Shown: positions 3,001-50,157, counted from the whole stretch's first letter. The stretch is 63,124 nucleotides of DNA, filler included, from Reclinomonas americana ATCC 50394 (GCA_048213135.1; 22 parts of 22 records of this genome joined end to end with filler, not necessarily neighbours in it), one strand, 5' to 3'. Numbers and translations are program-made. The notes: generated from the sequence alone by a model not told the origin.

Positions 3001-3017
3001 GCAAGTCCGCCTGCTGA
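1..3017 (+). CDS. Secreted Cys-rich protein: signal peptide, galactose-binding-like beta-sandwich, 19 STIG1-like repeats (5' incomplete, 5 exons)
   Basis: Phase-consistent exons <1-94 (LLVTLLCVIILLVGVSHG, hydrophobic), 231-455, 734-1072, 1141-1250 and 1374-3017, with GT..AG introns. Repeats D/N-x-x-NCGxCGxxCxxGQxCCxGxC. Confidence 0.8.
1190..3014 (+). repeat. Coding tandem repeat of 28/31-aa Cys-rich units with a higher-order 801-nt (9-unit) duplication
   Basis: The NDPLKCGPCANVQCLP unit (atccgctga) occurs at 2131 and 2932. Repeats 2-10 parallel repeats 11-19. Confidence 0.85.
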
Positions 3018-3194
3018 TGTGCACCACCCAGGTGACACCAGGCGCAAGCTGAGGATTGTGGAAGAGAAGAAGAAGCTCTGGTCTTGAAACAATATAACTG
3101 ACAAGGGTGGGGTAACGAGGGGCACAAACAGGCAGCTGAGGGGACAGCGATCAGGTACCTGACATACAACTCGTGCAGGGCATGGTTCATTGCG

Positions 3195-3779
3195 CTACCA
3201 CCAAAGCACGCGACGCTCAATCACCTCTGCATCCTCCAACACAAAACACCGCAGCACAACATCCACGAGAATCCAAGCACAGCCATCGTCCTCCTCGCCG
3301 ATCAGCAACTCGTTGACGGCCAGCATCGCCAGTCGTGCGGCCGCAACCGCTTGACTGGCGAGCCCACGCGACGTGGACCACACTCGGATCGTCCTGTCGG
3401 TACTCCCACTCACGATGCACAGGCCATCGGGAGTGACGGTGACAGAGTTCACAGCGTCCGCAGCTCCCTTCAATAGTCGCCGCTCCTCACCGTTCGCCAG
3501 CGACCACACTCGCACCGTTTCGACTTTACCGCCACTCACGATAAACTCTCCACCGGCAGAAACGGCCACCGACAGAACCGCGTCACTGTGTCCCTCCAAA
3601 CGCCGCACTTCAGCCCCACTCGCCAGCGACCACATTCGCACCGTCTTGTTATCACCTCTGCTCACAACGTGCTGACCATCTGGAGCGACGGCGACCGACA
3701 ACACCGTGTCCGTGTGGCCGCAGAAGCGACGCACTTCCTCGCCACTCGCCACACACCACACGCGTACACTCCGGTCCTG
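3195..3779 (-). pseudogene. WD40 array copy W1 (type B C-terminus), 5'-truncated
   Basis: About 3.3 WD40 repeats with damaged motifs (VSRGDNK, GGKVET), then the tail NELL..WILVDVVLRCFVLEDAEVIERR. The 5' end fuses directly into mid-spacer sequence (ctcgtctcatgcacgtactgtgagg). No MATK exon. Confidence 0.7.
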
Positions 3780-5227
3780 ACTCGTCTCATGCACGTACTG
3801 TGAGGCATGGAGTCACGCGCCATCGATGTTATGTTGCATGCATGCCAGTGGCGAGTCACTTGCCAGCACGCCTGTGTTCCGATCATACCCAGACAAAGTC
3901 AGTCAATCTCCCAGTCTCACCAACTTGCTCCCAACACGAGTGTAGAACACGCACGCACCATGTCTTGCTGGCCTCGCACGTGCCAGCTTTCCATGGCCAC
4001 CACCATCGTCACTCGGCAGAAACAGCAACAGCCAGAAAACGCGCATCATTGATCCGCTCCGACTTGCCAGCCGGTATTGATACCGATCCACCGACCACGC
4101 CACCATGTCGCACATCACGGTACGCATGTGTACACCAACCACGCCACGCTCTCCATGACCTGCACGACCTGCATGAATGAGATGAGTGGGAGGGAGGGAG
4201 GAAAGAAAGATCACGCCGAACATGTCCACACACCTGCTGAGTGCGCGGTGGGATGCGAATGGGGAGCCGTGTGAATGAAGTGACAGCCGGCAACGGGAGA
4301 TGCACAGCACGTCTGTCATCGTCACGGCCGACGGCAAGCACGGGCTTCCAAGGTGTCTGCATGCCAGTGTACTGTGAGCATAGGAATGGAGGAAAGAGAG
4401 ACATCTGCTCTGTCTCACGTGACGAACACACCGATCAGCATCTGATAGTTGGTCAGGAGGCAAGCCGAGGGACGGTTCTGCACGCACAACCATCCTTCAA
4501 AGGAGACAGAGAGAGCATTATCAGCCTGCAGGCAGTATACATCCTTCGGTGTCGGGATGCTCACCATGATGGACGGCCCAACACGATGGTAGCATGGCAA
4601 TCGGTGCATCATGAGAAGGCCAGCATCCTCGGCATCGAACGTGTGTGGGAAGGATGGGGTGGATGACTGGGGAGGCAAATGAGCGCACAAAGGAGGGAGA
4701 CGGTGGAGAAAGAGAGACTCTACAAGGGACATGAAAGAGGGAGAGCGGATTGACATGCATTCTTCAGGGCGGAAGGAGAATGTCCACGGCGCACATGCAC
4801 GATGAGAGGAAGAAAAATGGCACCAAGAAGGTGAATCAAGACGCGAGAAAACAATCATCGTATCTCGCTCACTGAGGCACTCACATGGGCGACGAAAGAT
4901 GCACGCACAACAGACATCAAAAAAGACGAAAAAGACGCAAGAGATACCCAAGTGATTTATCGCGCTGGCACACACAAACTGAGGTGAGAAGGAAACAAGC
5001 ACACACACACACACAGAGAGACATGCTTCACGACCTCTCGCTCACATTTACGTGACAAGAAAAAACCGACGGGAGAGCTCCTCGTAAACAACAATCTCTG
5101 CCTTCCTCTGTCATCCTCTCTTCCCCCACCTGCATCCCGCATGATTCACCCACTCTCCCTCGCAAGACACGAAAAACAACTCACAATCACCAGTAGCCAC
5201 CGCTCTCCCTCCCTCCGACTCACCAAC
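3780..5227. repeat. Spacer S1 copy 1 (partial)
   Basis: Shares blocks with the other S1 copies, e.g. gtcacttgccagcacgcctgtg, acaccgatcagca, gggatgcgaatggggagccg. Confidence 0.85.
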
Positions 5228-5641
5228 TCAGCACTGGAAAAGGACGACCTCGGCATCCTCGACGATGAAACAGCGCAGAACCAGCTCGGGAAGGCATCGT
5301 GAATCTTCTTCATCCTCCTGCATCTCCTGCACAGCCCGCATGGCCGAGCGCGCGGCGTCGAGTTCGAGGCCAGCAAGGCCACGCGGCGTGGACCACACTC
5401 GCACCNNNNNNNNNNNNNNNNNNNNNNNNNNNNNNNNNNNNNNNNNNNNTTAATTAATTAANNNNNNNNNNNNNNNNNNNNNNNNNNNNNNNNNNNNNNN
5501 NNNNNTGCCGACCACCCGCGGTGAGGCGCACGTGCACACACATCAACACAAACAACAACCGCACACACACGCACGAGCACACCAATGAACGCGCAGACAT
5601 CAACCCCGCGAATGCGCAGACATTCTCACCTTTGTTGTCAT
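5228..5641 (-). CDS. WD40 array copy W2 (type A); middle lost in gap
   Basis: Tail VWSTPRGLAGLELDAARSAMRAVQEMQEDEEDSRCLPELVLRCFIVEDAEVVLFQC* at 5228-5405. MTTK exon 5630-5641 with GT donor beyond the gap. The join across the gap is assumed. Confidence 0.7.
5406..5505. other. Artificial scaffold linker N44-TTAATTAATTAA-N44 (first of 21)
   Basis: Identical 100-nt blocks at 5406, 6651, 9748, 14390, 17143, 18847, 22582, 24415, 26008, 27125, 28628, 30197, 31852, 33211, 34775, 37666, 44624, 47306, 53246, 59996 and 61697. Confidence 0.98.
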
Positions 5642-6650
5642 TCTCCGTGAGCGTGCGCGTGAGTGAGTGATTTGCTCGCTCAGAATTGTCACCGTTTCCC
5701 GCCTTGCTCCGAGACGTCGTCCATCCCTCGCCAGGCTGCAACCAGCACCCCACACAGCATGCGGTAGTGTGTGAACGATGTGGCTTCGTTGATGCGTGTG
5801 AGCTTTCGAAGACCGACATGGGACTCGTCGATATGGGCAGAATGGACATGCTGGTGGTGGTGGCACAAGGTGGCGCTCCACTGCACCGTGCATGTCCAGC
5901 GACACTCTCTTTCAACTGCCCTGCATTCTCTCTCAACGAGGATTGGAGTGTCGGGCTGCTTGGATACGCAGTTGTGGCCCTGGTGTGCTGATGCCACAGC
6001 ACAGCACACTCGAGAATCCAATGAGCAAGCCAGCGACACCTCACACCTCGGATCGGCCCACAGCGAAGTTGAGGTGCGACAATGAAGAAAAAGAGCCACA
6101 AGAGAGAGGAGAGGAGTGACCAGTACAGCAGCACAGCGGTGGAAGAGGCTGCGTCATGAGACTTGCCTCCCCTTCACCCAACTCACAATCAATGCCTCGT
6201 GCCTTCAATCACACACACAGTCGGTCGGTGAACCGCTTCATGCATGTACTGTGAGGCACGGAACCACGTGTCTTCGCATGCCAGTCACTTGCCAGCACGC
6301 CTGTGTTCATGGCACACACCGAACTGAGTCAGCTGCAGTCTATCTCCGAGTTTCATCAACTTGCTCCTCAGTGCAGATACAGAATGTGCACGCACCATGA
6401 GTTGCTGGCCGAGCATGCGTCTAAAGTCACCCATGGTCACCACCATCGGTACTCGACAGAGACGGCGGCAACCAACGTGCGCACATCATCGATCTGCTCC
6501 GACTTGCCAGCCGGGATTGAAAACGATCAACCGACCAGGCACATCACGACACGCATGTGTACACCCACACAGCCACGCCCTCCATGGCATGGACGGCCTG
6601 CATGAATGAAGTGAGTGGGAGGGAAAGAGGAAAGAAAGATCACGTGCACG
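5642..6650. repeat. Spacer S1 copy 2 (partial, ends at gap)
   Basis: Starts gatttgctcgctc..ttgtcaccgtttcccgcc like the other copies. Confidence 0.85.
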
Positions 6651-6750
6651 NNNNNNNNNNNNNNNNNNNNNNNNNNNNNNNNNNNNNNNNNNNNTTAATT
6701 AATTAANNNNNNNNNNNNNNNNNNNNNNNNNNNNNNNNNNNNNNNNNNNN

Positions 6751-7113
6751 AACCACACACGTAGGGTGTTGTCTCCACCTCCACTCACGATGTGCTGACC
6801 ATCAGGGGTGACGGCAACAGACTGCAACCATGCAGTGTGTCCCTCCAGCCGTCGCACTTCTTCCCCACTCGCCAGTGACCACACTCGCACGGTACTGTTC
6901 AAGCAACCACCGACAGTGTGCTTGCCGTCGGGAGTGACAGCGACGGACCGCACTGCAGCGGATCCGGAACTCTGAATGATCTGTGCCGATCACTCGCAGT
7001 GAGACGCACATGCACAAACACTCAAACAGCAACCGCACACAAGCACAAGCACACGAATGCATGCACAGACACCGACCACGCAAAAGTGCGCACACATTCA
7101 CCTTTGTTGCCAT
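6751..7113 (-). CDS. WD40 array copy W3 (5' part only)
   Basis: Exon 1 7102-7113 MATK. Intron 6981-7101 GT..AG. Exon 2 IIQSSGSAAVRSVAVTPDGKH... runs into the gap. Confidence 0.8.
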
Positions 7114-8388
7114 TCTCCGCGTGTGTGTGTGTGATTTGCTCGCTCGGGATTGTCACCGTTTCCCGCCTTTCTTCTCCCGCCTTGCTCTGAGGCGTCTTAC
7201 ATCCCTCGCCAGGCTGCAGCCAGCACCCCACACAGCATGCGGTAGTGTGAACGATGTGGCTTCTTTGATGCGTGTGGGCTTTCGAAGACCGACATGGGAC
7301 TCGTCGATGAGAAATCGGCAGAATGGACAAGCAGGGTGGTGGTGGCACAAGGTGGCGCTCCACCGCACCGTGCTTGTCCAGCAACACTCTCTTTCTACTG
7401 ACCTGCATTATCTCTCAACGAGGACTGGCATGTCGGGCTGCTTGGATACGCAGCTGTGGCCCTGCACCCGAGAATCCACTGAGCATCGAGTCAACGACAC
7501 CTCACCTCCTTGGATCGGCCCACAGCGAGGTTGATGATGGTACGACGAAGAAGGAGAGTCACAGGGGACAGGAGAGGAGCGACCAGTACAGTAGCACGTG
7601 CACATCGATGGAACAGGCAGCTGCGTCGTGAGGCTCGCCTCCTCTCACCCAACTCACAATCAATGCCTCCAATCACACTCACAGTCGGTCGGTGCATTGT
7701 CTCATGCATGCACTGTGTGGCACGGAACTACATGTCTTCGCATGCCAGTGACGAGTCACTTGCCAGCACGCCTGCCGCACAGAATTGAGTTAGTCAATCT
7801 CCAAGTCTCACCAACTTGCTCCTCAACGCAGATGCAGAACACGTACGCACCAGGCCACGCGCGCGCGCATCTGCAGTCTCCCATGGCCACCAGCATCATC
7901 ACTCGACAGAGACGGCGGCAGCCAAGGTGCGCACATCATCGACCCGCTCCGACATGCCAGCCGGGATTGAAAACGATCCACCGACAGGCCATCCATCGCA
8001 CATCACGGCACGCGCGCATGTGTACATCCACCCACCCATGTCCTCCATGGCATGCACGGCCTGCATGAATGAGGTAAGTGGGAGGGAAGGAGGAAAGAGA
8101 GATCACGACAAACAGGGCCACACAACTGCTGAGTGCATGGTGGGATGCGAGTGGGGAGCCGAGTGAGTGAGGTGACGGTCGACAACGGGCAATGCACATC
8201 ACGTTTGTCATCATCGACATAACAATGAGGGGGACCTGCCCCTAAGGTGCCTGCATGTCGGTACACTGTGAGCAAAGAATGGAGGAAGAGGAGCTCTTGT
8301 CTCACTGACAAACACACCGATCAGCACCTGATGCCAACACGCATTGGTCAAGAGGCAAGCGAGGAACGTTTCTGCATCCAGACGTCCA

Positions 8389-8420
<32 letters not shown>

Positions 8421-9146
8421 CAGAGTCAGTATGTAGTCATGCCACCTCACACACTTCTATGTTGGGATGCTCACCGCGATAGACGGCCCAAAACGATGGC
8501 GCCGGCTGAATCGCAGCCGGCGCATCTTGAGCAGATACTCGGATCGAGCTTGTGCGGGAGGGATGGGGTGGATGGCTGGGGAATCAGATGAGCACACATA
8601 GGAGGAAGACGGTGGGGAAAGAGAGAGAGAGACTCTACAAGGGACAGAGAAGGAGGGCTCGAGAGCGGAATGACAGGCATCCTGCAGATCTAGAGCCGGA
8701 AGGAGAATGTGCACGGCGCACAGGCACAATGAGAGGAAGAAAAATGGCGCCAAGAAGGCGAATCAAGAAGCGAAGAAACAAACATCGTTGACTCGCTCTC
8801 CTGAGGCGCATACATGCACGACTAAAGATGCACGCACAACAAATATCACAAAGAGAGGGAAAAGAGCAAGAGACTCCCAAGTGATCCGTCGAGCTTGTAC
8901 ACAAAATAGAGGTGAGAAAGAGACACGCACACAGAGGGAGACATGCTTCACGCCCGCACAATCACATTCACGTGACAGGAAAAACCGACGGAAGAGCTCT
9001 TCGTAAACAACAACCTCTGCCTTCCTCTGTCATCTCTCTTTCCCCACCTGCATCCCGCATGATCACCCACTCTACCTCGCACGCGTACGACACGAAACAA
9101 ACTCACAATCACCAGCAGCCACCTTCTCTCCCTTCGACTCACCAAC
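7114..9146. repeat. Spacer S1 copy 3 (complete, ~2.0 kb)
   Basis: Colinear with 12280-14259 and 14856-17045, with many indels. Confidence 0.9.
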
Positions 9147-10034
9147 TCAGCACCGGAAAAGGACGACCTCGGCATCCTCGACGATGAAGCAGCGCAGAGC
9201 CAGCACTGGAAGACATCTTGAATCTTCTTCTTCCTCCTGCATCTCCTGCACAGCTCGCATGGCCGCGCGCGCGGCGTCGAGTTCGAAGCCAGCAAGGCCA
9301 CGCGGCGTGGACCACACTCGCACGGTCTTGTCCTTGCCACCCGCACTCACAATGTGCAGACCATCGGGAGAGACGGCAACAGACGACACCCATCCGTCAT
9401 GTCCCACCAACAGTCGCACTTCCTCGCCACTCGCCAGAGACCACATCCGCACTGTGCTGTCCTTGCTCCCACTCACGATATGTTGGCCGTCGGGAGTGAC
9501 GGTGACAGACGATACCCAGTCAGTGTGTCCCTCCAGTCGGCGAACCTCTTCTCCACTTGCCAGCAACCATACCCGCAATGTGTTGTCTCCACCGCCACTC
9601 ACGATGTGCTGACCATCAGGGGTGACTGTCACACAAAGCACCCATGCAGTGTGTCCTTCTAATATTAATCGTCCCACTTCTTCCCCACTCGGCAGTGACC
9701 ATACTCGCACGGTGGTGTCTCCACCGCCACTCACAATGTGCTGACTANNNNNNNNNNNNNNNNNNNNNNNNNNNNNNNNNNNNNNNNNNNNTTAATTAAT
9801 TAANNNNNNNNNNNNNNNNNNNNNNNNNNNNNNNNNNNNNNNNNNNNGTCGGGAGTGACGGCGATGGACCTCACCACATCGAGACTCTGAATGATCTGTG
9901 CCGATCATTCGCGGTGAGACGCACACGCAGCAGCGACATTCGAAGACACGCACACACAAGCACACACACACACGAATGCACGCACAGACACCAACCACGC
10001 AAAAGTGCGCACACATTCACACCTTTGTTGTCAT
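9147..10034 (-). CDS. WD40 array copy W4 (type A), internal gap
   Basis: Exon 1 10023-10034 MTTK. Exon 2 from 9895 IIQSLDVVRSIAVTPD. ORF 9147-9734 has WD40 repeats and the tail ...RCFIVEDAEVVLFRC*. Confidence 0.8.
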
Positions 10035-10103
10035 TCTCCGTGTGTGTGTGTGTGTGAGAGAGAGAGTGCGTGAGAGAGAGAGAGTGCGTGCGTGCGTGCG
10101 TGC

Positions 10104-10138
<35 letters not shown>

Positions 10139-10299
10139 AAGCACTCTGATTCATCGGACGGAGCATCAACATCAACTCTCGCGCGTGCGCGTGCGCCTCG
10201 TGGTGCCGTCTGTGTCTCAGTGCCCCCTGTCTCTCTGCGTCCTCGTCGCGGTGCTCCCTTCTCAACCAGCAATGTGAGCGAGATATTGCGGCATTGAAT

Positions 10300-10946
10300 G
10301 TGTATGCATGCATGCCGAGCCAACTCGACACGCCATGAGCATCAACTCCCTCCGAGCCACGCGTGTGAGTCGGGTGGAGAGGCAACACCACACGATTCTG
10401 AAAGAGAGCGAAGAAGCAGAGAAACTCGCGAGTGGGGTGCGTCACACCAGTTGTCAGGGCACACACGCACGCGTGGGAAACGAGTGCGCAGGGCAAGTGC
10501 ACTCCCTCCCTCCCCGTGGCGTGGGGTGATCATGAGAAGGGTGGCCGTCTGAATCGATGCCTGACGCGCTCTCCGTGTTCACGCGGTGCCAGTGTGAGAG
10601 AGGGGAGGTGGGCGAAGATGCCACTTCAAAAAGCTGCAGGCTGGCATCTCCACTGCGTTCGAATGACAGGGCGAGATGAGGGGTGGGTGGGTGAGAGAGC
10701 GACGACTCGCCCAACGCCGAGCAGAACGCGTGTCTATTCATCCATGGCCTCACCTCAACCACCCACACACACCTCGCACTCGGGATTCTCTTGTTGCGAT
10801 TCCACTGCACTGTGCAGTGCCTGCTTTCCGGCTGCCTCCACTTGGCAAGGCAACGGAGAAGCACCTTGGCACGTATGAGGCAGTGCGGCAGCCAACGTGA
10901 GACAGTTGCACACAGACAGCCATCAGTCTTCGTACATTAATTGAGC
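10300..10946. repeat. Spacer S2 copy 1 (3' flank of type B genes)
   Basis: Homologous to 22682-23324 (gccatgagcatcaactc, gggcaagtgcactccctccc, acacctcgcactcgggattctc). Confidence 0.85.
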
Positions 10947-12118
10947 TCACTCCGACCAGCACCATCCAGGCGAACGATGTTCAATCACCTCTGCATCCTC
11001 CAACACGAAACACCGCAGCACAACATCGACGAGGATCCAGTCATAGACATCGACCAGGATCCAGTCATAGTCCCCATGGTCATCATCTTCAGCAAGCAGC
11101 TCGTTGACGGCCAGCACGGCTGATTGCGCGGCCGCAACCTCTTGACGGGCAAGCCCACGCGGCGTGGACCACACTCGGATCGTTTTATCCTGACTGCCAC
11201 TCACGATGTGCTGGCCATCGGGAGTGACGGCAACAGACCATACCGCGTCAGAGTGCCCTTCCAACCGTCGCACTTGTTGCCCACTCACCAACGACCACAC
11301 CCGCACCGTATTGTCCACTCCACCACTCAAAACGTGCTGGCCGTCGGGAGTGACGGCAACAGACAGCACCACACCGGTGTGCCCTTCCAACCTCTGTGCT
11401 ACCTCTCCAGTCGCAAGCGACCACATTCGTAACGTATGGTCATCGCCCCCGCTCACAACGTGCTGACCGTCGGGAGAGACGGCGACGGACCACACTTCAG
11501 CGTGCCCTTCCAGCCGCCGTACTTCCTTTCCGCTCGCGACAGACCACACTCGTACAGTGCTGTCCCAGCTGCCACTGACAATGTGGTGACCGTCCGGCGT
11601 GATGGCGACGGAGAGCACCACGCGGGAGTGACCCTCCAACCGTCGTAGTTGTTTCCCATTCGCCAGTGACCACACCCGCACGGTATGATCTCCACCCCCA
11701 CTCACAACGTGCAGACCATCGAGAGTGGCAGCGACAGACATCACCCAGTCGAAGTGTCCCTTCAACCGTCGCACTTCCTTTAAATTTCCACTCGCCAGTG
11801 ACCACACTCTCACTGTGTCATCCATACCGCCAGTCACAACGCGCTGGCCGTCAGGAGTGACAGTGACAGACATCACATTTGTAGTGTGTCCTTCCAACCG
11901 TCGCACCTCTTCGCCACTCGCCAGCGACCACACACGTACCGACCTGTCATGGCCGCCGCTCACGATAAACTGACCGTCGGGAGTGACAGCGACACATCGC
12001 ACCGCGTCTGTGTGGCCCCGCAAGACCTGTGTCACACGATGAGAAGCACGCGTATAGAGAGAGAAACAGTCAAACACACGAATCCCTCACACACATGTGA
12101 GCGCACCTTGGTTGCCAT
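10947..12118 (-). CDS. WD40 array copy W5 (type B), complete 7-blade propeller
   Basis: Exon 1 12107-12118 MATK. Intron 12027-12106. Exon 2 VLRGHTDAVRC... has 7 WD40 repeats and a tail with a 24-nt duplication (YDWILVDV x2). Confidence 0.9.
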
Positions 12119-12279
12119 TGGAAACGAGGAAGGATAAATGACTCTGCAGTCCTCTCTTGATAGGTTCGCTTCTGTTGACTTCTTCTCTTCGAAGAGCAAG
12201 CCAATTGGTCGGTACTCTTCTGTGGTGGTCACGAAGAATCTGTTCTTTCTCGTGCGCGCGTGTGTGCGTGGTTGCGTGT

Positions 12280-14259: not shown

Positions 14260-14855
14260 TCAGCACCGGAAAGAGACGACCTCGGCATCCTCGACGATGA
14301 AGCAGCGCAGAACCAGCTCGGCAAGACACCGTGAATCTACTTCCTCCTCCTGCATCTCCTGCACAGCCTGCATGGCCAAGCGTGCGGCANNNNNNNNNNN
14401 NNNNNNNNNNNNNNNNNNNNNNNNNNNNNNNNNTTAATTAATTAANNNNNNNNNNNNNNNNNNNNNNNNNNNNNNNNNNNNNNNNNNNNTCCAGCGACCA
14501 CACACGTACGGTACAGTCTCCACTCCCACTCACGATGTGCTGACCATTGGGAGTGACGGCGACAGACCACACCGAACCAGTGTGTCCATCCAGTCGTCGC
14601 ACTTCTTCCCCACTTGCCAGAGACCACACACGAACGGAGCTGTCCAAGCACCCACCGACAATGTGCTGGCAATCGGGAGTGACAGCGACTGACCGCACCG
14701 AAGAAGCGAGACTCTGAATGATCTGTGTCGATTACCCGCCGTGAGACGCACATGCACAAACACTCAAACAGCAACCGCACACAAGCACAAGCACACGAAT
14801 GCATGCACAGACACCGACCACGCAAAAGTGCGCACACATTCACCTTTGTTGCCAT
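14260..14855 (-). CDS. WD40 array copy W6 (type A), internal gap
   Basis: Exon 1 14844-14855 MATK. Exon 2 from 14722 IIQSLASSVRSVAVTPDCQH. Tail AARLAMQAVQEMQEEEVDSRCLAELVLRCFIVEDAEVVSFRC*. Confidence 0.8.
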
Positions 14856-17045
14856 TCTCCGCGTGTGTGTGTGTGATTTGCTCGCTCGGGATTGTCACCG
14901 TTTCCCGCCTTTCTTCTCCCGCCTTGCTCTGAGGCGTCTTACATCCCTCGCCACGCTGCAGCCAGTACCCCACGCAGTATGCAGTAGTCTGAGAGCAATG
15001 TGGCTTTGTTGATGCGTGTGGGCTTTCGAAGACTGACATGGGACTTGTCGATGGGAAATCGGCAGAATGGACAAGGGTGGTGGCTCGAGGTGGCGCTCCA
15101 TTGCATCGCGCTGCTGTCCAGCGACACTCTCTTTCTACTGCCCTGCATTATCTCTCAACGAGGACTGGCATGTCGGGCTGCTTGGATACGCAGCTGTGGC
15201 CCTGGTGTGCTGATGCCACGGCACACTCGAGATTCCAATGAGCAGCGGGTCCGCGACACCTCACACCTCCTTGGATCGGTCCACAGCGAGGTTCATGATG
15301 GTACGACGAAGAAGGGGAGTCACAGGGAACAGGAGAGGAGCGCCCAGTACAGTAGCACGTGCACAGCGATGGACGAGGCAGCTGTGTTGTTCGCCTCCTC
15401 TCACCCGGTCACAATCAATGCCTCGCGCCTTCAATCATACTCACAGTCGGTCGGTGCATTGTCTCATACATGCACTGTGTGGCACGGAACCACATGTCTT
15501 CGCATGCCAGTCACTTGCCAGCACGCCTGTCACACATAATTGAGTTAGTCAATCTCCAAGTCTCACCAACTTGCTCCTCAACGCAGATGCAGAACACGTA
15601 CGCACCAGGCCACGCGCGCGTCTGCAGTCTCCCATGGCCATCACCATCATTGCTTGGCGGCGACAGCAGCAACCAAGAAGCGCACATCATCGATCCGCTC
15701 TGACTTGCCAACCGGGATTGAAAACGATCCACCGACCAGGCCACCCATGGCCATCGGGAAACACAACACGTGCACGCATGTGTCCACCCATGAGTAGATT
15801 GCCGAGCACGCGTCTGCAGTCTTCCATGGCTACCAGCATCATCACTCGGCAGAGATGGCGGCAGCCAAGGTGCGCACATCATCGATCCGCGCAGACTTGC
15901 CAGCCGGGATTGAAAACGATCCACCGCAGGCCATCCATCGCACATCACGACACATATGTGTACACCCACCCAGCCACGCTCTCCATGACATGCACGGCCT
16001 GCATGGATGAAGTGAGTGGGAGGGAAGGAAGAGAAGAGAGATCACGCCGAACAAGTCCACACACCTGCATCGTGCATTGGTGGGATGCGAGTGGGGAGCC
16101 GAGTGAGTGAGGCAACAGCCGGCAACGGGCAATGCACAGCACGCCTGTCATCGCCACGACATGCTTTCCATGGTCTCTGCATGCCGGTGTGCTGTGAGCA
16201 AAGAATGGAGGAAGGAGAGAGAAATCTGCTCTGTCTCACTGACAAACACACCGATCAGCACCTGAAACCAACACACGCGTTTGGGCAAGAGACAAGGCGA
16301 GGGATGCTTCTGTACATACATCCATCCTGCAAAGGAGAGGAAGAGAAGAATCAGCATGTAGTCATGCCACCCCACACACTTTGGCGTCGAGATGCTCACC
16401 GTAATGGACGGCGCAACGCGATGGCTGAATCGCAGCCGGCGAATCTTGAGCAGATACTCGGATCGACCTTGTGCGGGAAGGATGGGGTGGATGACTGAGG
16501 AAGCAGATGAGCGCACAAAGGAGAAAGACGGTGGCCACGTGGGGAAAGAGAGAGACTCTGTAAGGGAGAGAGAGAGAGAGTGAGGTGCAAGACATGCATT
16601 CTTCAGAGTCGGAAGGAGAATGTCCACGGCGCACATGCACAATGGGACACAGAGTAGTGTGCAATGCAAGACACAATGAAACAATCATCGTTGACTCGCT
16701 CTCCTGAGGCACACACATGCACAACTAAAGAAGCACGTACAACAATTATCACAAAAGAGACGAAAACGCAAGAGACTCCCAGGTGATTCATCGCACTGGC
16801 ACACACAAATTGAGGTGAGAAAGAGACACGCACACAGAGGGAGACATGCTTCACGCCAGCACACTCACATTCACATGAAAGGGGAACAAGCACGGGAGAA
16901 CAATTCTGCATCAACGACCTCACTCTCCTCCTCTGTCATTATCTCTTCCCCCACCTGCACCCTGCATGATCACCCACACTCCCTCGCAGACACGAAACAA
17001 CTCACGATCACCAGCAGCCACCTTCCCTTCCTCCGACTTACCGAC
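14856..17045. repeat. Spacer S1 copy 5, with an internal ~190-nt-period duplication
   Basis: cgcgtctgcagtct..catggc...ccgggattgaaaacgatccaccg occurs at ~15617-15735 and ~15808-15927. Confidence 0.9.
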
Positions 17046-18107
17046 TCAGCACCGGAAAAAGACGACCTCGGCATCCTCGACGATGAAGCAGCGCAGAACC
17101 AGCTCGGGAAGGCATCGTGAATCTACTTCCTCCTCGGCGGCANNNNNNNNNNNNNNNNNNNNNNNNNNNNNNNNNNNNNNNNNNNNTTAATTAATTAANN
17201 NNNNNNNNNNNNNNNNNNNNNNNNNNNNNNNNNNNNNNNNNNCACCCTAATGGTGCAGTCCCAGCTCCCACTCACGATATGTTGGCCGTCGGGAGTGACG
17301 GTGACAGACCACACCGCAACATAGTGTCCCTCCAACCGTCGCACCTCCTCCCCACTTGCCAGCGACCACACTCTCACCGTGTTGTCCCAACTGCCACTCA
17401 CGACGTGTTGACCATCAGGAGGGACGGCGACAGAGTATACCCGTCCAGTGTGTCCCTCCAGCCGTCGCACTTCCTCCCCGCTCGCCATCAACCACACTCG
17501 CACGGTGCTGTCTCCACCCCCGCTCACTACGTGCCGACCATCAGGGGTGACTGCCACAGACATCACCCTTGCAGCGTGTCCTTCCATCCGTCGCACCTCT
17601 TTTCCACTCGCCAGAGACCACACTCGTATTGTCTTGTCGCTGCTGCCGCTCACAATATGTTGACCATCGAAGGCGACGGCGACAGACAACACCGCATTGG
17701 TGTGTCCCTCAAACCGTCGCACTTCTTCTCCACTTGCCATCGACCAGACACGTAGGGTGTTGTCTCCACTTCCACTCACAATGTGCTGACTATCAGGGGT
17801 GACGGCGACAGAGAACACCCATTCAGTGTGTCCCTCCAGTCGTCGCACTTCTTCGCCACTCGCCAGTGACCACACTTGAACGGCACTGTCCACACACCCA
17901 CCAACAATGTGCTTGCCATCGGGAGTGATGGTGACGGACCTCACTACAGCAGCGCGACTCTGAATGATCTGTGTCGATCATTCGCGGTGAGACGCACACA
18001 CAACATCAACACAAAGAACAACAACCGCACATATGCACGAGCACACGAATGCACGCACAGACACCAACCACGCAAAAGCGCGCATACATTCACACCTTGG
18101 TTGTCAT
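17046..18107 (-). CDS. WD40 array copy W7 (type A), at least 6 repeats, gap before the tail
   Basis: Exon 1 18096-18107 MTTK. Exon 2 from 17968 IIQSRAAVVRSVTITPDG. Tail EEEVDSRCLPELVLRCFIVEDAEVVFFRC* at 17046-17135. Confidence 0.85.
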
Positions 18108-20092
18108 TCTCCGTGTGGTGTGTGTGTGTGTGTGTGTGTGTGATTTGCTCGCTCGGGATTGTCACCGTCTCCCGCCTTTCTTCTCCCGCCTTGCTCTGAG
18201 ACGTCCCGCATCCCTCGCTGCGCTGCAGCCAGCACCCCACACAACATACAGCAGTATGAGAGCAATGTGGCTTTGTTCATGCGTGTGGGAATCCGAAGAC
18301 CGACATGAAACTCGTCGATGCGATATGGGCAGAATGGACAAGCAGGGTGGTGGTGGCACAAGGTGGCGCTCCACCGCACCGTGCTGCTGTCCAGCGACAC
18401 TCTCTTTCGACTGACCTGCATTATCTCTCAACGAGGACTGGCATGCCGGGCTGCTTGGATATGCAGCTGTGGTCCAGCTGTGCTGAAGCCACAGCACAGC
18501 ACACTCGAGAATCCAATGAGCAGCGAGTCTTCGAATCCTCAAGCCTCCTTGGATCGGCCCACAGCGAGGTTGATGATGGTACGACGAAGAAGGTGAGTCA
18601 CAGGGAACAAGAGAGGAACGACCAGTACAGTAGCACGTGCACAGCGATGGACGAGGCAGCTGCGTCGTGAGGCTCGCCTCCCTCTCACCCAAGTCACAAT
18701 CAATGCCTCGCGCCTTCAGTCATACTCACAGTCGGTCGGTGCATTGTCTCATGCATGCACTGTGTGGTACGGAACCACGTGTCTTCGCATGCCAGTGACG
18801 AGTCACTTGCCAGCACGCCTGTGTTCAGATCACACGCAGAATTGAGNNNNNNNNNNNNNNNNNNNNNNNNNNNNNNNNNNNNNNNNNNNNTTAATTAATT
18901 AANNNNNNNNNNNNNNNNNNNNNNNNNNNNNNNNNNNNNNNNNNNNCAAGGCCATCCATCGCACATCACGACACACATGTGAACATCCACCCAGCCACCC
19001 CGCTCTCCATGACCTGCACGACCTGCAGGTATGAAGTGAGTGGAGGGAAGGAAGAGAAGAGAGATCACGCCGAACAAGTCCACACACCTGCTTCGTGCAT
19101 GGTGGGATGCGGGTGGGGAGCCGAGTGAGTGAGGTGACAACCGGCAACAGGCAATCCACAGCACGCCTGCAATCATTACGGAACAACGAGGGGGACCTGC
19201 CCCTAAAAGGTGTCTGCATATCGGTACACTGTGAGCGAAGAATGGAGGAAGGAGAGATATCTGCTCTGTCTCAACGACGAACACACCGATCAGCATCTGA
19301 TACCAACACGCGCATGACAAGAGGCAAGGCGAGGGATGATTCAGCACACACATCCATCCTGCAAAGGAGAGGGAGAGAGAGAGAGAGAGAGAGCGAGCAG
19401 AATCAGTATGCAGGTATGCCACCTCACACACTTCGGTGTCGGGATGCTCACCATGATGGACTGGCAATCGATGGCAGTCGGAACACGGTGAGCAGACCAG
19501 CATGTTCGGCCTCGAGCGTGTGCGGCAAGGAGGGGTTGATGACTGGGGAATCAGATGAGCGCACAAAGGCAGGAAGATGGCGGAGAAAGAGAGAAATTCT
19601 GCAAGGGACATGAAAGAGGGAGAGCGGAACGACATGCATTCTTCAGAGCCGGAAGGAGAATGTCCGCGGCGCACATGCACTATGGGACACAGAGTAGTTG
19701 AGTGCAAAGCAAGACGCGAGGAAACAAACATCGATGACTCGCTTTCCTGAGGCGCATACATGCACGGCTAAAGTTGCACGCACAACAGACATCACAAAGA
19801 GACAGAAAGACAAAACAGACTCCCAAGTGATTCGTCGCACAAGCTGAGGTGACAGACACGCACACAGAGGGAGACATGCTTCACGACCGCAGACTATCAT
19901 TCACATGAAATTTAAAGGGCAACAAACACGGGAGAACAATTCACCACCATCAACAGCGATCTCTCGATCTCTCTCCCCTGTCGTCCTCTCTTTCCCCATC
20001 TGCATCCCGCATGATCACCCACTCTCTCTCGTACGACACGAAAACAACACACAATCACCAGCAGCCACCTTCCCTCCCTTCGACTCACCTTC
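18108..20092. repeat. Spacer S1 copy 6 (contains a gap)
   Basis: Colinear with the other S1 copies. Confidence 0.85.
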
Positions 20093-20996
20093 TCAGCACC
20101 GGAAAAGGACGATCTCGGCATCCTCGACGATGAAGCAGCGCAGAACCAGCTCGGGAAGGCATCGAGAATCTACTTCCTCCTCCTGCATTTCCTGCACAGC
20201 CAGCATGGCCAAGCGCGCGGCGTCGAGCTCGAGACGAGCGAGGCCACGCGGCGTGGACCACACTTGCACGGTCTTGTCGTAGCCACCCGCACTCACAATG
20301 TGCTGACCATCGGGAGAGACGGTCACAGACGACACCCATCCAGTGTGTCCCTCCAACCGTCGTACTTCCTCGCCACTCGCCAGAGACCACACTCGAACTG
20401 TGCTGTCTCCGCACCCGCTAACAATGTGCTCACTACCAGGGGTGACAGCGACTGACCACACCTTTTCGGTGTGTCCCTCCAACCGCCGCACCTCCTCCCC
20501 GCTCGCCAGCGACCACACCCGCACTGTGCAGTCCCAGCTCCCACTCACGATGTGATGACCATCTGGAGTAACAGCGACAGACGTCACAGTGTCGGCGTGT
20601 CCAACCAGCCGTCGTACCTCCTCCCCACTCACCAGCGACCACACACGTACTGCGTTGTCGAAACTGCCGCTCACAACGTGCTTACCATCAGGAGTGACGA
20701 CGACAGACATCACCCTAGGGTGCCCCTCCAGCCGTCGTACCTCCTTGCCACTCGCCAGTGACCACACTCGGACGGTACTGTCCATGCACCCACCAACAAT
20801 GTGCTTGCCGTCGGGAGTGATGGTGACGGATCGAACCACTGCGGGACTACGAATGATCTGTGTCGATCATTCGCGGTGAGACGTACACACACAAACATAC
20901 ACACAAACAGCAATCGCACACATGCACAAGCACACGAATGCACGCACAGACACCAACCACGCAAAAGTGCGCATACATTCACACCTTTGTTGTCAT
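20093..20996 (-). CDS. WD40 array copy W8 (type A), complete, 5 repeats only
   Basis: Exon 1 20985-20996 MTTK. Intron 20858-20984. Exon 2 IIRSPAVVRSVTITPDG...KTVQVWSTPRG...AEIVLFRC*. No gap. Confidence 0.9.
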
Positions 20997-22465
20997 TCTC
21001 CGTGTGTGTGTGTGTGTTTGCTCGCTCGGGATTGTCACCGTTTCCCGCCTTTCTTCTCCCGCCTTGCACTGAGATGTCGTCCATCCCTCGCTGCGCTGCA
21101 GCCAGTACCCCACACAACAGACGGTAGTGTGAGAGCAATGCGGCTTCGTTGATGCGTGCGGGCTTTCGATGACTGACATGGGACTCGTCGATGAGAAATC
21201 GGGAGAATGGACAAGCAGGTTGGTGGCTCGAGGTGGCGCTCCACTGCACCGCGCTGCTGTCCAGCGACACTCTCTTTCGACTGACCTGCATTATCTCTCA
21301 ACGAGGACTGGCATGTCGGGCTGCTTGGATACGCAGCTGTGGCCCTGCACCCGAGAATCCAATGAGCACCGAGTCAACGACACCTCATCTCCTTGGATCG
21401 GCCCACAGCGAGGTTGATGAGGGTACGATGATGGCAAACGGTACAGGAGAGGAGCGACCAGCACAGCAGCTCAGCGGTGGACGAGGCAGCTGCGTCATGG
21501 GACTCACCTCCTCTCACTCAAGTCACAATCAATCCCTCATGCCTTCAATCACACTCACAGTCGGCCGGTACATTGTCTCATGCATGTACTGTGAGGCACG
21601 GAACCACGTGTCTTCGCATGCCAGTCACTTGCCAGCACGCCTGTGTTACGATCACACAAAGAATTGAGTCAGTCAATCTCCAAGTCTCACCACCTTGTTC
21701 CTCAACGCAGATGCAAAACACGTACGCACCAGGCCTTGCGCGTATCTGCAGTCTTCCGTGGCCACCACCATTGTCACTCGACAGAGACGGCGGCAGCCAA
21801 GGCGCGCACATCATCTATCCGTTCCGACCTGCCAGCCGGGATTGAAAACGATCCACCGACCAGGCCATCACGACACGCATGTGTACATCCACCACGCCAT
21901 GCACTCCATGGCCTGCACGACCTGCAGGTATGAAGTGAGTGGAGGGAAGGAGGAGAGAGAGGTCACGAAGAACAGGGCCACACAACTGCTGAGTGCATGG
22001 TGGGATGCGAGTGGGGAGCCGAGTGAGTGAGGTGACGGTCGACAACGGGCGATGCACATCACGCCTGTCATCGCAACGACATGCTTTCCATGGTCTCCGC
22101 ATGCCGGTGTGCTGTGAGCGAAAGAATGGAGGACGGGGAGAGAAATCTGCTCTGTCTCACTGACAAACACACCGATCAGCACCTGATACCAACGCGCGTT
22201 TGTCAAGAGGCAAGCCAAGGGACGCTCACACAACCATCCTGCAAGGGAGAGAGAAGGAGCAGAGTCAGTATGCAGGTATGCCACCTCACACACTTCGGCA
22301 TCGGGAAGCTCACTATGATGGACTGGCAGGATGGAAATCGTAACACGGTGAGCGGACCAGCATGTTCGGCCTCGAGCGTGTGCGGCAAGGAGGGGTGGAC
22401 GACTGGGGAATCAGATAAGCACACAAAGGAGGGAGACGGTGGAGAAAGAGAGAAACTCTGTAAGG

Positions 22466-22499
<34 letters not shown>

Positions 22500-22536
22500 C
22501 GTAGGTAAGGGACAGAGAGAGAGAGAGAGACTCGTA

Positions 22537-22581
<45 letters not shown>
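20997..22581. repeat. Spacer S1 copy 7, ending in a (GA)n expansion at a gap
   Basis: Colinear with S1. (GA)n at 22469-22581. Confidence 0.85.
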
Positions 22582-22681
22582 NNNNNNNNNNNNNNNNNNN
22601 NNNNNNNNNNNNNNNNNNNNNNNNNTTAATTAATTAANNNNNNNNNNNNNNNNNNNNNNNNNNNNNNNNNNNNNNNNNNNN

Positions 22682-23324
22682 TGCCTGCCGAGCCTGTTCC
22701 ACTCAACCCGCCATGAGCATCAACTCACTCCGAGTCACGCATGTGAGTCGGGTGGAGAGGCAACAACACGCGATCCACAAAGAGAGCAACGAGGCATCGC
22801 AGTTCGTGAGTGGGGTGCGCCACGCCAGTTGTCAGGGCACACACACACATCCGGGAAACGAGTGCGCAGGGCAAGTGCACTCCCTCCCTCCTCGTGGCGT
22901 GTGTGGCGAGAAGGGCGGCCTACTGAATCGATGCTTGACGCGCTCTCCATGTTCATGCGGTGCCAAAGTGAGAATGAGGCGGGTAATGATTGCCACTTGC
23001 CGCTGCTTCAACGCCGCGTTCGAATGACAGGGCGACATGAAGGCACAAGCACAAGGCGTGTGTTTGGGTGGGAGAGCGAGGACTCGCTCAATGCCAAGCA
23101 ACACGCGTGTGCCTGTTCATTCCATGGCCTCACCTCAACCACCTCTCGCACACCTCGCACTCGGGATTCTCTTCTTGCAATCCCTCTGCACAGCACTGTG
23201 TTGTATCTGCTTTCCGGCTGCCTGCACTTGGCAAGGCAGTGGAGAAGCACGTGTGAGCCGGTGTGGCAGTCAACATAGCAGAGTCGTGCAGTGACAGCCA
23301 TCAGTCTTCGTACATTCATTGAGC
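22682..23324. repeat. Spacer S2 copy 2
   Basis: Homologous to 10300-10946. Confidence 0.85.
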
Positions 23325-23620
23325 TCACTCCGTCCAACACCATCCAGGCGCACGGCGTTCAATCACCTCTGCATCCTCCAATACAAAACACCGCAGCACG
23401 ACGTCGACGAGGATCCAGTCACGATCATCTTCTTCGACAAGCAGCTCGTTGACAGCCAGCACGGCTGAGCGTGCGGCCGCAACCTCTTGCCCCGCCAGCC
23501 CACGCGGAGAGGACCACACTCGGATCGATTTATCCGCACTCCCACTCACGATGTGCTGGCCATCGGGGAAGACGGCGACAGAGTATACCCATCCAGTTCG
23601 TCCCCCCCAACCGTCCAACA
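23325..23620 (-). pseudogene. WD40 array copy W9 (type B): one repeat plus tail, 5'-truncated
   Basis: GWVYSVAVFPDGQHIVSGSADKSIRVWSSPRG..RCFVLEDAEVIERRAPGWCWTE*. The GH motif is frameshifted (G7 run) and upstream sequence is unrelated. Confidence 0.7.
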
Positions 23621-24029
23621 CTGCGCAACAGGAACAAAGGACTGTGAGAAGAAACAATCTGATGAGAGAGTGGGTTGTGAAGCAAAGAGACAGACATCGA
23701 CGAACGGGATGGAATGCGGAGAATGAGTGAGGAGTAGCGCGCTGCAATTACGTGGGTGCAAAAGGAAGAGAGAGAGGGTAGGCACAAATCGGAATGGGGA
23801 GGAAGAGGAGAGCAAGCGAGGAACGCGGCACAGTGACGGGCAAGCATCACTCAATCGACACGAAGCAGAACAATGCGAGACGAGAAGAAAGAGATAGTGG
23901 GCGCACGGAGGCATGAACAATGCAAGTGCATGACATGAAGGAAGGAGAACAGGGCGGATCTTGAGAAGCGGACGATGAAGACAGGAGGGAGGCATTGAAA
24001 GGGAGGCCACTGAAGAGCGATCAGCTGAC

Positions 24030-50105: not shown

Positions 50106-50157
50106 TGATGATGGGGCACACGAATTCTGTGTGGTATGTGACTTGAGTGAACTGTCT

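What the first reader, a model, noticed from the sequence alone, without database searches (positions are those of the whole stretch)
3195..23620. Tandem array of at least 9 stand-alone WD40 genes with HET-E-like hypervariable binding positions: a candidate diversifying receptor repertoire
Seen: nine same-strand paralogs whose repeats share one scaffold, EEVRRLEGHxxxVxSVAVTPDGQHIVSGxxDxTVRVWSLASG. Variation concentrates at two sites. After GH: TDAVR, TTNVM, FDWVM, SRVVL, TEWVF, AARVM, TGRVY, YVAVW, ADTVT, TEKVW, TAWLQ. Around SGxxDx: GHDR, GMDD, SWDS, GDDH, SFDN, SWDC, CGDS, SSDK. Established: in Podospora HNWD allorecognition proteins (HET-E/HET-D/HET-R), equivalent top-face positions of homogenised WD40 repeats are positively selected and set ligand specificity. 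Unlike HNWD proteins, these genes carry no NACHT or HET domain, only a short C-terminal module. Inference: an antibody-like, gene-conversion-driven family of cytoplasmic recognition propellers (defence or self/non-self) in a protist.
Basis: partly seen in the sequence, partly recalled or inferred. Interest (0 to 1): 0.85.

Follow-up and report, generated by a model that had tools for sequence, protein, structure and literature searches.

The report
Tandem WD40 gene family, variable top face
A protist genome piece carries at least nine head-to-tail copies of a small WD40 propeller gene whose likely binding surface differs in every blade, but the copies are old and diverged rather than freshly shuffled like fungal HET-E receptors.

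Summary
Nine same-strand WD40 units lie at 3195-23747. Six of 42 repeat positions (GH-xxx-V-x and G-x-D-x) carry most of the amino-acid variation.

Three corrections apply.
- The window is 22 short contigs joined by a synthetic 100-bp linker. Only two genes (Gb, Ge) are contiguous, five are split by gaps, and two (Ga, Gi) are relics.
- The genes are not intronless. Each has a 12-nt first exon (M-A/T-T-K) and an 80-127-nt phase-0 intron.
- The HET-E mechanism is not supported. Repeats are only about 70% identical at DNA level, within genes as between genes, with synonymous sites near saturation. They group by blade position rather than by gene. The conserved scaffold has dN/dS of about 0.16. 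The variable sites have 0.8-1.4, and 0 of 42 sites tests positive.

This is birth-and-death evolution under purifying selection, not concerted evolution.

The 55-75-aa C-terminal tail matches no Pfam family. It matches 2 of 1.84 billion representative proteins, one from a Reclinomonas americana EST.

Most likely this is a family of adaptor propellers with differing top faces and one shared tail. Function is inferred, not shown.

The parts
23325..23747 (-). Ga: relic unit with one blade plus a type-2 tail (..AVNELL..DWILVDVVLRCFVLEDAEVIE..), no start exon, non-WD sequence upstream
   Evidence: its 3' part and the flank below it (22682-23589) are 77.7% identical to Ge's 3' part and downstream flank
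20093..20996 (-). Gb: complete gene in one contig. Exon 1 is 20985-20996 (ATG ACA ACA AAG), the intron is 20858-20984 (127 nt, GT..AG, phase 0), exon 2 is 20093-20857. Five blades plus a type-1 tail, stop TGA
   Evidence: Pfam WD40 E 1.6e-53; AlphaFold blades pLDDT about 98, modelled as 5 of 7 blades of a propeller
17243..18107 (-). Gc 5' part: exon 1 18096-18107, intron 17969-18095, exon 2 17243-17968 with six blades, running into the contig end
17046..17142 (-). Type-1 tail fragment at the top of seg5, taken as the 3' end of Gc across the linker
14490..14855 (-). Gd 5' part: exon 1 14844-14855, intron 14723-14843 (121 nt), exon 2 14490-14722 with two blades, running into the contig end
14260..14389 (-). 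Type-1 tail fragment at the top of seg4, taken as the 3' end of Gd
10947..12118 (-). Ge: complete gene. Exon 1 is 12107-12118 (ATG GCA ACC AAG), the intron is 12027-12106 (80 nt), exon 2 is 10947-12026. Seven blades plus a type-2 tail with an internal DWILVDV duplication
   Evidence: Pfam WD40 E 1.9e-84; AlphaFold seven-bladed propeller, mean pLDDT 89.2, blades about 98
9848..10034 (-). Gf 5' part: exon 1 10023-10034, intron 9896-10022, start of exon 2 up to the contig end
9147..9747 (-). Gf 3' part: 3.4 blades plus a type-1 tail
6751..7113 (-). Gg 5' part: exon 1 7102-7113, intron 6981-7101, two blades up to the contig end; its tail lies in a gap
5506..5641 (-). Gh start: exon 1 5630-5641 and an intron that runs off the contig
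5228..5405 (-). Gh 3' end: last strand of a blade plus a type-1 tail
3195..3812 (-). Gi: degenerate unit with three decayed blades plus a type-2 tail, no start exon, stop TAG; probable pseudogene
   Evidence: lowest repeat identity of the genes compared (median 0.55)
6990..9146 (-). One complete inter-gene spacer (about 2.16 kb), 76-87% identical between units, with no Pfam-detectable coding
5406..5505 (.). Example of the synthetic linker N44-TTAATTAATTAA-N44. Within the finding the same 100 bp recur at 6651, 9748, 14390, 17143, 18847 and 22582

Best explanation
This is a tandemly duplicated, lineage-restricted gene family that encodes small WD40 beta-propellers with no recognisable domain other than WD40. 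Each gene has a 12-nt first exon (M-A/T-T-K), one short phase-0 intron, and a second exon with 5 to at least 7 near-consensus WD40 blades. It ends in a conserved 55-75-residue tail: an acidic helix followed by the invariant LRCF..EDAE motif.

The family grew by duplication of whole 3-3.4-kb units and then diverged (birth-and-death). The blade scaffold, including the H, S, D and W positions of the WD40 hydrogen-bond tetrad, is held by strong purifying selection. Six top-face positions per blade change at about the neutral rate, so every blade has a different surface.

Inferred mechanism, not shown: the variable top face binds a different partner in each paralogue, and the constant tail links all of them to one common partner or assembly. 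That would make the family a set of adaptors or substrate receptors.
For: Gene reality:
- Reading frames stay open through the blades of all units although the units differ by 13-33% in DNA.
- Scaffold dN/dS is 0.155 over all 276 repeat pairs, 0.17 over the 13 closest pairs and 0.27 by tree counting, with many sites significantly constrained.
- The start exon with its GT donor is found in 7 of 7 units that have a 5' end, and the AG acceptor in the 6 where that stretch is assembled, always in phase. In Ge the same ATG GCA ACC AAG|GTG sits in flanks that otherwise do not align with the other units.
- Seven of 8 tails end in TGA at the same place. Type-1 tails have dN/dS 0.45.
- 12 tail columns are invariant across 8 units.

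Fold: Ge is predicted as a seven-bladed propeller with blade pLDDT about 98. The closest solved structures are repetitive WD40s (5yzv, 2ymu, the designed WRAP-T) at 40-41% identity.

Mode of evolution:
- Repeat DNA identity is 0.70 within genes and 0.71 between genes. The best pairs are equivalent blades of different genes (Gc_r2/Gg_r2 0.905, Gb_r5/Gf_r4 0.897).
- In the tree the first blades cluster (SH-aLRT 96), last blades pair up, and gene labels are not clustered for Gb, Gc, Gf, Gi, Gd and Gg.

Surface:
- All 24 blades have distinct six-residue signatures.
- Trp makes up 16 of 142 residues at these sites against 3.3 expected from base composition, and Pro, Ile, Val and Leu are depleted, so the sites are not compositionally neutral.
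- Synonymous changes are not concentrated there, which argues against a local mutation hotspot.

Family elsewhere: a tail profile hit 2 of 1,835,955,588 representatives. One is a protein predicted from a Reclinomonas americana EST (E 5e-19, 67% identical to Gb's C-terminal part). The other is a 394-aa protein with ordinary, divergent WD repeats and a type-2-like tail.
Against: - No expression data exist for this locus. The splice model rests on consensus signals and their conservation only.
- Five of seven start-bearing genes are interrupted by gaps, so blade numbers, and any recently exchanged blades hidden in the gaps, are unknown.
- Gb has only 5 blades and is modelled as an open arc, so it may not be functional on its own.
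- The tail is predicted with low confidence (pLDDT 30-78) and matches no known adaptor box. The 'common partner' step is pure inference.
- dN/dS near 1 at the variable sites fits simple lack of constraint as well as divergent binding.
- The Trp enrichment test treats related blades as independent, so its P value is overstated.
Confidence: 0.6

Rival explanations
1. One reading: a HET-E-like recognition repertoire. Repeats are kept homogeneous and reshuffled by gene conversion or unequal crossing-over, top-face codons are under positive diversifying selection, and the proteins serve defence or self/non-self recognition.
For: The same codon geometry is variable as in HNWD repeats. Blade number differs between paralogues (5, 7, at least 6). 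Among the 13 closest repeat pairs the hypervariable-site dN/dS is 1.42 against its own dS and 1.09 against all-site dS. Trp is enriched at these sites. Assembly gaps fall inside five genes and could hide recently exchanged blades.
Against: Repeats are about 70% identical in DNA with pS 0.55-0.62, against up to 100% identity in HNWD. There is no within-gene homogenisation (0.700 against 0.710). Repeats group by position. 0 of 42 sites is significant for positive selection, and pooled hypervariable omega is 0.81, P 0.90. There is no NACHT, HET or other signalling domain. Contig ends are not near-identical to other places (30-38 of 40 bases), and the whole window is fragmented, so the gaps need not mark identical repeats.
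Confidence: 0.12
2. A largely redundant or decaying duplicate family. One or a few copies do an ordinary housekeeping WD40 job, the rest drift, and the top-face sites vary because nothing constrains them.
For: dN/dS at the variable sites cannot be told from 1. Ga and Gi are clear relics. Gb has only 5 blades. A distant relative (P0122) has ordinary divergent blades.
Against: The scaffold is under strong constraint in all assembled blades of start-bearing genes. Start codon, donor and acceptor are intact wherever they are visible. Residue use at the variable sites is far from mutational expectation: Trp is 4.8-fold enriched and Pro 10-fold depleted.
Confidence: 0.18
3. The units are alternative terminal exons of one long transcription unit, not separate genes.
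For: Each WD exon begins at an AG acceptor. A conserved donor-like GGTGAGT or GGTAAGT lies 4 nt after the stop codon.
Against: Each unit carries its own ATG mini-exon with a donor in phase. Every WD exon ends in a stop codon. No upstream domain-coding exon was found. The post-stop motif is a single inherited observation and could mark a 3'-UTR intron.
Confidence: 0.04
4. An assembly artefact: haplotypes or collapsed and expanded copies of one locus.
For: The window is a chain of short contigs with artificial linkers. No reads could be laid on the locus.
Against: Units differ by 13-33% over kilobases, spacers included. Two to three different units lie inside single contigs (seg1, seg3, seg4, seg5). 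All 7 junctions between the eight array contigs are colinear with the unit order and on the same strand, which is unexpected for a random chain.
Confidence: 0.02

Closest known systems
Podospora anserina HNWD/NWD family (HET-E, HET-D, HET-R)
   Same: 42-residue near-consensus WD40 repeats. The variable codons sit on either side of the conserved Val (start of strand A) and the conserved Asp (B-C turn), on the interaction face. It is a multigene family and includes pseudogene members (PMC1805685, passages read).
   Different: Here there is no HET or NACHT domain. Repeats are about 70% rather than up to 100% identical. There is no concerted evolution and no demonstrated positive selection. The genes lie in one tandem array and carry an orphan C-terminal tail.
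Highly or moderately repetitive WD40 proteins (Hu et al. 2017, PMC5587647), in particular their minority class of ancient repetitive WD40s kept alike by purifying selection
   Same: High internal repeat identity with diversity confined to predicted hotspot sites. That paper reports a small group with dS of at least 1.0 and median omega 0.19 (passages read). Here scaffold dS is 0.97 and dN/dS is 0.155. The closest solved folds are from this class (5yzv, 2ymu).
   Different: Most described members are prokaryotic or fungal, are often multidomain, and mostly have low dS (young). This is a stand-alone, intron-bearing, tandemly arrayed family in a protist. Internal identity is 0.63-0.74, which straddles their 0.7 cut-off.
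Expanded families of cullin-RING substrate receptors (F-box-WD40, SOCS-box-WD40) - recalled, not tested by any search beyond Pfam
   Same: The architecture works alike in principle: a variable propeller surface plus a short constant module that could dock to common machinery.
   Different: No F-box, SOCS-box or other box is detectable in the tail (0 Pfam families at E<=10). The resemblance is functional analogy only.

Membership tests
WD40 repeat beta-propeller (PF00400) | Repeated 40-44-residue units with the GH..WD pattern that fold into four-stranded blades of a propeller | tested here: met
   Pfam E 1.6e-53, 1.9e-84 and 1.6e-27. AlphaFold gives seven blades with pLDDT about 98. Foldseek to 5yzv gives rmsd 1.0 over 286 columns.
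HNWD / HET-E-type fungal NLR | N-terminal HET and central NACHT domain | tested here: not met
   The N-terminus is four residues before the first blade. 0 of 70 other ORFs of at least 110 aa in 3100-24414 hit any Pfam family.
HNWD / HET-E-type fungal NLR | Concerted evolution: repeats nearly identical within and between genes, not grouping as positional orthologues | tested here: not met
   DNA identity is 0.70 within and 0.71 between genes, and pS is 0.55-0.62. The tree groups blades by position. Caveat: blades hidden in gaps are unseen.
HNWD / HET-E-type fungal NLR | Positive selection (dN/dS above 1) at the codons flanking the conserved Val and Asp | tested here: inconclusive
   The same positions are hypervariable. 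Omega is 0.82 over all pairs, 1.09-1.42 over close pairs and 0.81 by tree counting, with 0 of 42 sites significant. The data are paralogues only, with saturation and 24 short sequences.
HNWD / HET-E-type fungal NLR | Repeat-number and sequence polymorphism between strains | not testable with these tools
   There is one assembly only. No sequencing run was listed.
Highly-Repetitive WD40 (Hu et al. 2017 definition: at least six repeats with all pairwise identities of 0.7 or more) | Internal protein identity of at least 0.7 (HR) or 0.4-0.7 (MR) | tested here: inconclusive
   Ge has 7 repeats with min 0.48 and median 0.63, which is MR. Type-1 genes have medians 0.70-0.74, but fewer than six internal repeats are assembled in any one gene.
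Ancient repetitive WD40 kept by purifying selection (subclass in Hu et al. 2017) | dS between repeats about 1 or more, with omega far below 1 | tested here: met
   Scaffold dS is 0.97 and dN/dS is 0.155.
F-box / SOCS-box WD40 substrate receptors | A recognisable F-box or SOCS-box next to the propeller | tested here: inconclusive
   Tails gave 0 Pfam families at E<=10 and no usable Atlas hit. A short, divergent box could escape these searches.

The most novel reading that the evidence does not exclude
A NOD-less recognition repertoire in a deep-branching, probably jakobid-related, protist. Each stand-alone propeller paralogue would present a different Trp-rich top face to foreign or variable ligands. 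The shared orphan tail would trigger one common response by oligomerising or by recruiting an effector. Incomplete members such as the 5-blade Gb might complete their rings with other members, giving combinatorial surfaces. That would be an innate-recognition architecture built from WD40 sensors without NACHT or STAND ATPases.
Probability: 0.12. Interest if true: 0.85.

Novelty: new variant of a known kind. Interest (0 to 1): 0.45.

Why it matters
Near-consensus WD40 repeats with variable hotspot residues are known mainly as sensor domains of fungal and bacterial NLR-like proteins, and as young, recently duplicated repeats.

This locus shows the same surface pattern in a different setting. The genes are stand-alone, arranged in a tandem array and carry an orphan tail. 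The blades are old yet kept near consensus by selection rather than by gene conversion.

If the paralogues bind different partners, the locus is a compact natural series of one scaffold with many surfaces. It would be useful for studying how WD40 specificity is encoded, and for asking whether such repertoires arose independently of NLRs.

It is also a caution. Variability at HET-E positions is a property of this repeat class and does not by itself show diversifying selection.

Tried and rejected
- Whole-genome search: no genome is held for this window.
- Sequencing runs for 18947-22581: none was listed and no RNA holder was listed. No reads were therefore laid, and expression and splice sites could not be checked.
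- Whole-protein homologue search with Gb: 2942 hits at E<=1e-3 among 8000 candidates scored. The best was 57% identical and covered the WD part only, so it gave no information about the tail.
- Metagenome contig scan with the tail profile: 164 pattern matches, 0 confirmed relatives.
- Protein Atlas search for the tail: no usable hit.
- Attempt to place the organism with a DNA-polymerase-I-like ORF (43904-44623): only bacterial-type PolI at up to 42% identity, so no taxonomic information. The jakobid link rests only on one EukProt name.
- miT2SS-associated WD40 proteins Gcp1-3 of jakobids (PMC8134430, passages read) are described as Pex7-like. I did not compare sequences, and I see no reason to link them to this family.
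- Alternative genetic code to explain the in-frame TGA before 'STQIIQS': dropped once the mini-exon and intron were found, because the TGA lies in the intron.
- A roughly 13-kb super-unit (type-2, then three type-1, then type-2...): the order fits, but unit-to-unit identities do not pair up cleanly. Left open.
- Contig breaks as a sign of identical hidden repeats: contig ends match other places at only 30-38 of 40 bases.
- Complex prediction was not run, because no binding claim here rests on it.

Full report
**What the window is.** The 63,124-base window is not one continuous sequence. It holds 21 copies of an identical 100-bp linker, N44-TTAATTAATTAA-N44, which has a stop in all six frames. 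The linkers split it into 22 contigs of 1.0-6.9 kb. The finding spans eight of them: seg1 1-5405, seg2 5506-6650, seg3 6751-9747, seg4 9848-14389, seg5 14490-17142, seg6 17243-18846, seg7 18947-22581 and seg8 22682-24414. No whole genome is held, and no sequencing run was listed for the locus. GC content is 52-60% across the region. Other contigs carry intron-split eukaryotic genes.

**The observation.**
- A loose blade-core motif gave 28 hits, all on the minus strand: 27 between 3398 and 23534, and one in an unrelated gene at 54837.
- Pfam WD40 scored E 1.6e-53 (Gb), 1.9e-84 (Ge) and 1.6e-27 (Gi).
- Stop-to-stop translation and frame checks resolve nine units, from high to low coordinate.

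| Unit | Position | Content |
|---|---|---|
| Ga | 23325-23747 | one blade plus tail |
| Gb | 20093-20866 | complete |
| Gc | 17243-17977, tail piece 17046-17142 | split by a gap |
| Gd | 14490-14731, tail 14260-14389 | split by a gap |
| Ge | 10947-12086 | complete |
| Gf | start near 9900, plus 9147-9747 | split by a gap |
| Gg | 6751-6989 | tail lost in a gap |
| Gh | start in seg2, tail 5228-5405 | split by a gap |
| Gi | 3195-3812 | degenerate |

**Are the copies real and tandem?**
- Unit-to-unit blastn identity is 76-87% over the 2.1-kb spacers and 67-76% over the repeats. These are diverged paralogues, not haplotypes or assembly duplicates.
- Head-to-tail arrangement is seen directly inside contigs. 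Seg4 holds the Gd tail, all of Ge and the Gf start. Seg3 holds the Gf 3' end and the Gg start. Seg5 holds the Gc tail and the Gd start. Seg1 holds the Gh tail and Gi.
- The joins across linkers cannot be verified. However, all seven junctions between the eight contigs are on the same strand and colinear with the unit order, so the linkers most likely stand for scaffold gaps.
- Contig ends are not near-identical to other places (30-38 of 40 bases), and the whole window is fragmented. The breaks therefore need not mark identical repeats.
- Unit count: seven units have a start exon (below). Ga and Gi have none and are contiguous with non-gene sequence upstream. That gives at least nine units, of which only Gb and Ge are complete in one contig.

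**Gene structure.**
- Type-1 open frames begin right after an in-frame TGA ('..SHRE*STQIIQS..') with no ATG.
- Aligning the spacers and a pattern scan revealed a conserved mini-exon, GGAGA-ATG-RCA-ACM-AAG|GTG. It lies 121-127 nt upstream of the acceptor ..CGRCACAG|ATCATT, in phase 0.
- The ATGs are at 20996, 18107, 14855, 10034, 7113 and 5641.
- Ge has ATG GCA ACC AAG|GTGCGC at 12118 and an 80-nt intron ending ACACAG|GTC. Its flanks otherwise do not align with the other units, which argues for constraint on this element.
- The proteins thus start M-(A/T)-T-K and run directly into the first blade. The N-terminal strand can close the ring in the usual WD40 way (inference).
- Stops are TGA in seven tails and TAG in Gi.
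- This model rests on sequence signals only.

**No other domain.** 77 stop-to-stop ORFs of at least 110 aa lie in 3100-24414. I scanned 70 of them; the seven left out were six WD frames and one frame overlapping Gd's 5' end. None hit Pfam at E<=1e-3.

**Where the variation sits.**
- 24 internal repeats were aligned over 42 columns.
- Entropy is 2.05, 2.53, 2.76 and 2.92 bits at positions 15, 16, 17 and 19 (GH-x-x-x-V-x). It is 3.15 and 2.76 bits at positions 35 and 37 (G-x-D-x-T). The next highest position has 1.78 bits.
- All 24 blades have different six-residue signatures.
- In the AlphaFold model of Ge (mean pLDDT 89.2, blades about 98), these residues lie in the loop before strand A, at the second residue of strand A, and in the B-C turn. 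By established WD40 topology that is the top face.
- Paoletti et al. 2007 (PMC1805685, passages read) report positive selection at codons 7, 9, 25 and 27, flanking conserved codons 8 and 26. That is the same geometry as 17/19 around V18 and 35/37 around D36 here.
- Hu et al. 2017 (PMC5587647, passages read) note that in repetitive WD40s generally most sites are conserved but predicted hotspot sites are diverse. The pattern is therefore a property of this repeat class, not a special mark of HET-E.

**Mode of evolution.**
- Nei-Gojobori counts over all 276 pairs gave scaffold pS 0.545 and pN 0.137 (dS 0.97, dN/dS 0.155). Hypervariable sites gave pS 0.616 and pN 0.567 (dN/dS 0.82).
- Mean DNA identity between repeats is 0.700 within genes (43 pairs, maximum 0.794) and 0.710 between genes (233 pairs, maximum 0.905). 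The best pairs are equivalent blades of different genes.
- An ML tree of 29 repeats, built without the hypervariable codons, has weak support overall: 1 of 26 inner branches has SH-aLRT of at least 95. It clusters the four first blades (SH-aLRT 96). It pairs last blades (Gb_r5 with Gf_r4, Ge_r7 with Ga_r1) and second blades (Gc, Gf, Gg). Gene labels are no more clustered than shuffled labels, except partly for Ge.
[quoted passage not shown] It also matches the small class of ancient repetitive WD40s (dS of at least 1, median omega 0.19) described in PMC5587647.
- Internal protein identity is median 0.63 for Ge and 0.70-0.74 for type-1 genes.

**Is there positive selection?**
- Among the 13 closest pairs (at least 80% DNA identity, not independent of each other), hypervariable-site dN/dS is 1.42 against its own dS and 1.09 against all-site dS. 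The scaffold gives 0.17.
- A parsimony count on the tree (SLAC-like, my own script) gave omega 0.55-1.20 at the six sites and 0.81 pooled (P 0.90). 0 of 42 sites were significant for positive selection, and many scaffold sites were significantly constrained.
- Parsimony undercounts changes at fast sites, and the data are paralogous blades. The correct reading is 'about neutral rate; excess not shown'.
- The six codons hold 129.8 of 291 non-synonymous changes but only 45.2 of 261 synonymous changes, so the variability is not a mutation hotspot.
- Residue use is not neutral. Trp is 16 of 142 (3.3 expected from spacer base composition). Lys, Asn, Asp and Thr are enriched. Pro, Ile, Val, Leu and Arg are depleted. 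That test treats related blades as independent.

**The tail.**
- There are two forms. Type 1 (Gb, Gc, Gd, Gf, Gh) reads ..AMxAVQEMQEEExDSRCLPELVLRCFIVEDAEVVLFRC. Type 2 (Ga, Ge, Gi) reads ..AVLAVNELL..DWILVDVVLRCFVLEDAEVIE...
- 12 columns are invariant, including LRCF and EDAE.
- Type-1 tails have pS 0.163 and dN/dS 0.45.
- There was no Pfam family at E<=10, no Atlas hit and no confirmed relative in metagenome contigs.
- A profile search of 1,835,955,588 representatives found two proteins. P0121 is 116 aa and named in EukProt as from a Reclinomonas americana EST. It has one blade plus a type-1-like tail, and is 67% identical to Gb over 107 residues. P0122 is 394 aa, from an unnamed contig. It has ordinary divergent WD repeats and a type-2-like tail, and is 28% identical over the propeller and 45% over the tail.
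- The family is therefore narrow, is transcribed in at least one jakobid, and its type-2 tail looks like the older form. Whether the window's organism is a jakobid is not shown.
- AlphaFold gives the tail a helix at pLDDT 60-78 and nothing confident after it.

**Blade number.** Ge has seven blades and folds as a closed propeller. Gb has five. Its model superposes on five of the seven blades of solved propellers (5yzv rmsd 0.9 over 199 residues; WDR5 entry 8q1n Z 32.4). It also matches 6r60, an assembly of two 5-bladed fragments (Z 30.9). Gb may be a deletion product, or it may need a partner to close its ring. This is open.

**Verdict.** The sequence observation is sound and well above chance. 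The physical description needs the caveat of linkers and gaps. The best-supported account is an old tandem family of small WD40 adaptors. The scaffold is selectively maintained near consensus, the top faces are free to differ, and an orphan tail is shared by all copies. Function is inferred from architecture only.

Noticed in passing
whole window; e.g. 5406-5505, 6651-6750, 9748-9847: 21 identical synthetic linkers (44 N, TTAATTAATTAA, 44 N) join 22 short contigs. Any feature that spans a linker depends on an order that the sequence itself cannot prove.
   Followed up: yes
1134-3017 (+): A Cys-rich repeat protein next to the array: 12 Stig1-like repeats (PF04885, E 7.4e-94), with what looks like an in-frame read-through of an intron near its start.
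   Followed up: partly
minus strand, 4 nt after each type-1 stop codon, e.g. 20083-20089, 9137-9143: A conserved GGTGAGT or GGTAAGT, a consensus 5' splice donor, directly after the stop. It is possibly a 3'-UTR intron. It counts as one inherited observation, not eight.
   Followed up: no
10950-11174 (-): Ge's tail carries an internal duplication (DWILVDVY followed by DWILVDVV) that is absent from the other type-2 tails.
   Followed up: no
3195-23747: Tail types follow the order type-2, three type-1, type-2, three type-1, type-2. This hints at an older super-unit of about 13 kb, but pairwise identities between units do not pair up cleanly.
   Followed up: partly
22440-22581, 8340-8400 and many spacers: Long (CT)n and (CA)n/(GT)n microsatellites in the spacers and at contig ends. 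They probably contribute to the fragmented assembly.
   Followed up: no
P0122 (394 aa, unnamed contig): A distant relative with ordinary, poorly conserved WD blades but the same tail motif (WMLVDVVLRCFIKEDAEV). It suggests the near-consensus blades of the window family arose after the tail-bearing gene already existed.
   Followed up: partly
34875-63124: The other contigs hold intron-split eukaryotic genes: ankyrin repeats (36154-37713), a PolI-like polymerase (43442-44623), a DEAD-box/SPRY helicase (47576-50146), an IFT-like WD/TPR protein (52333-55104) and an RRM protein (35170-35892). They were named by eye from the translations, apart from the PolI-like ORF. None is related to the array.
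   Followed up: no
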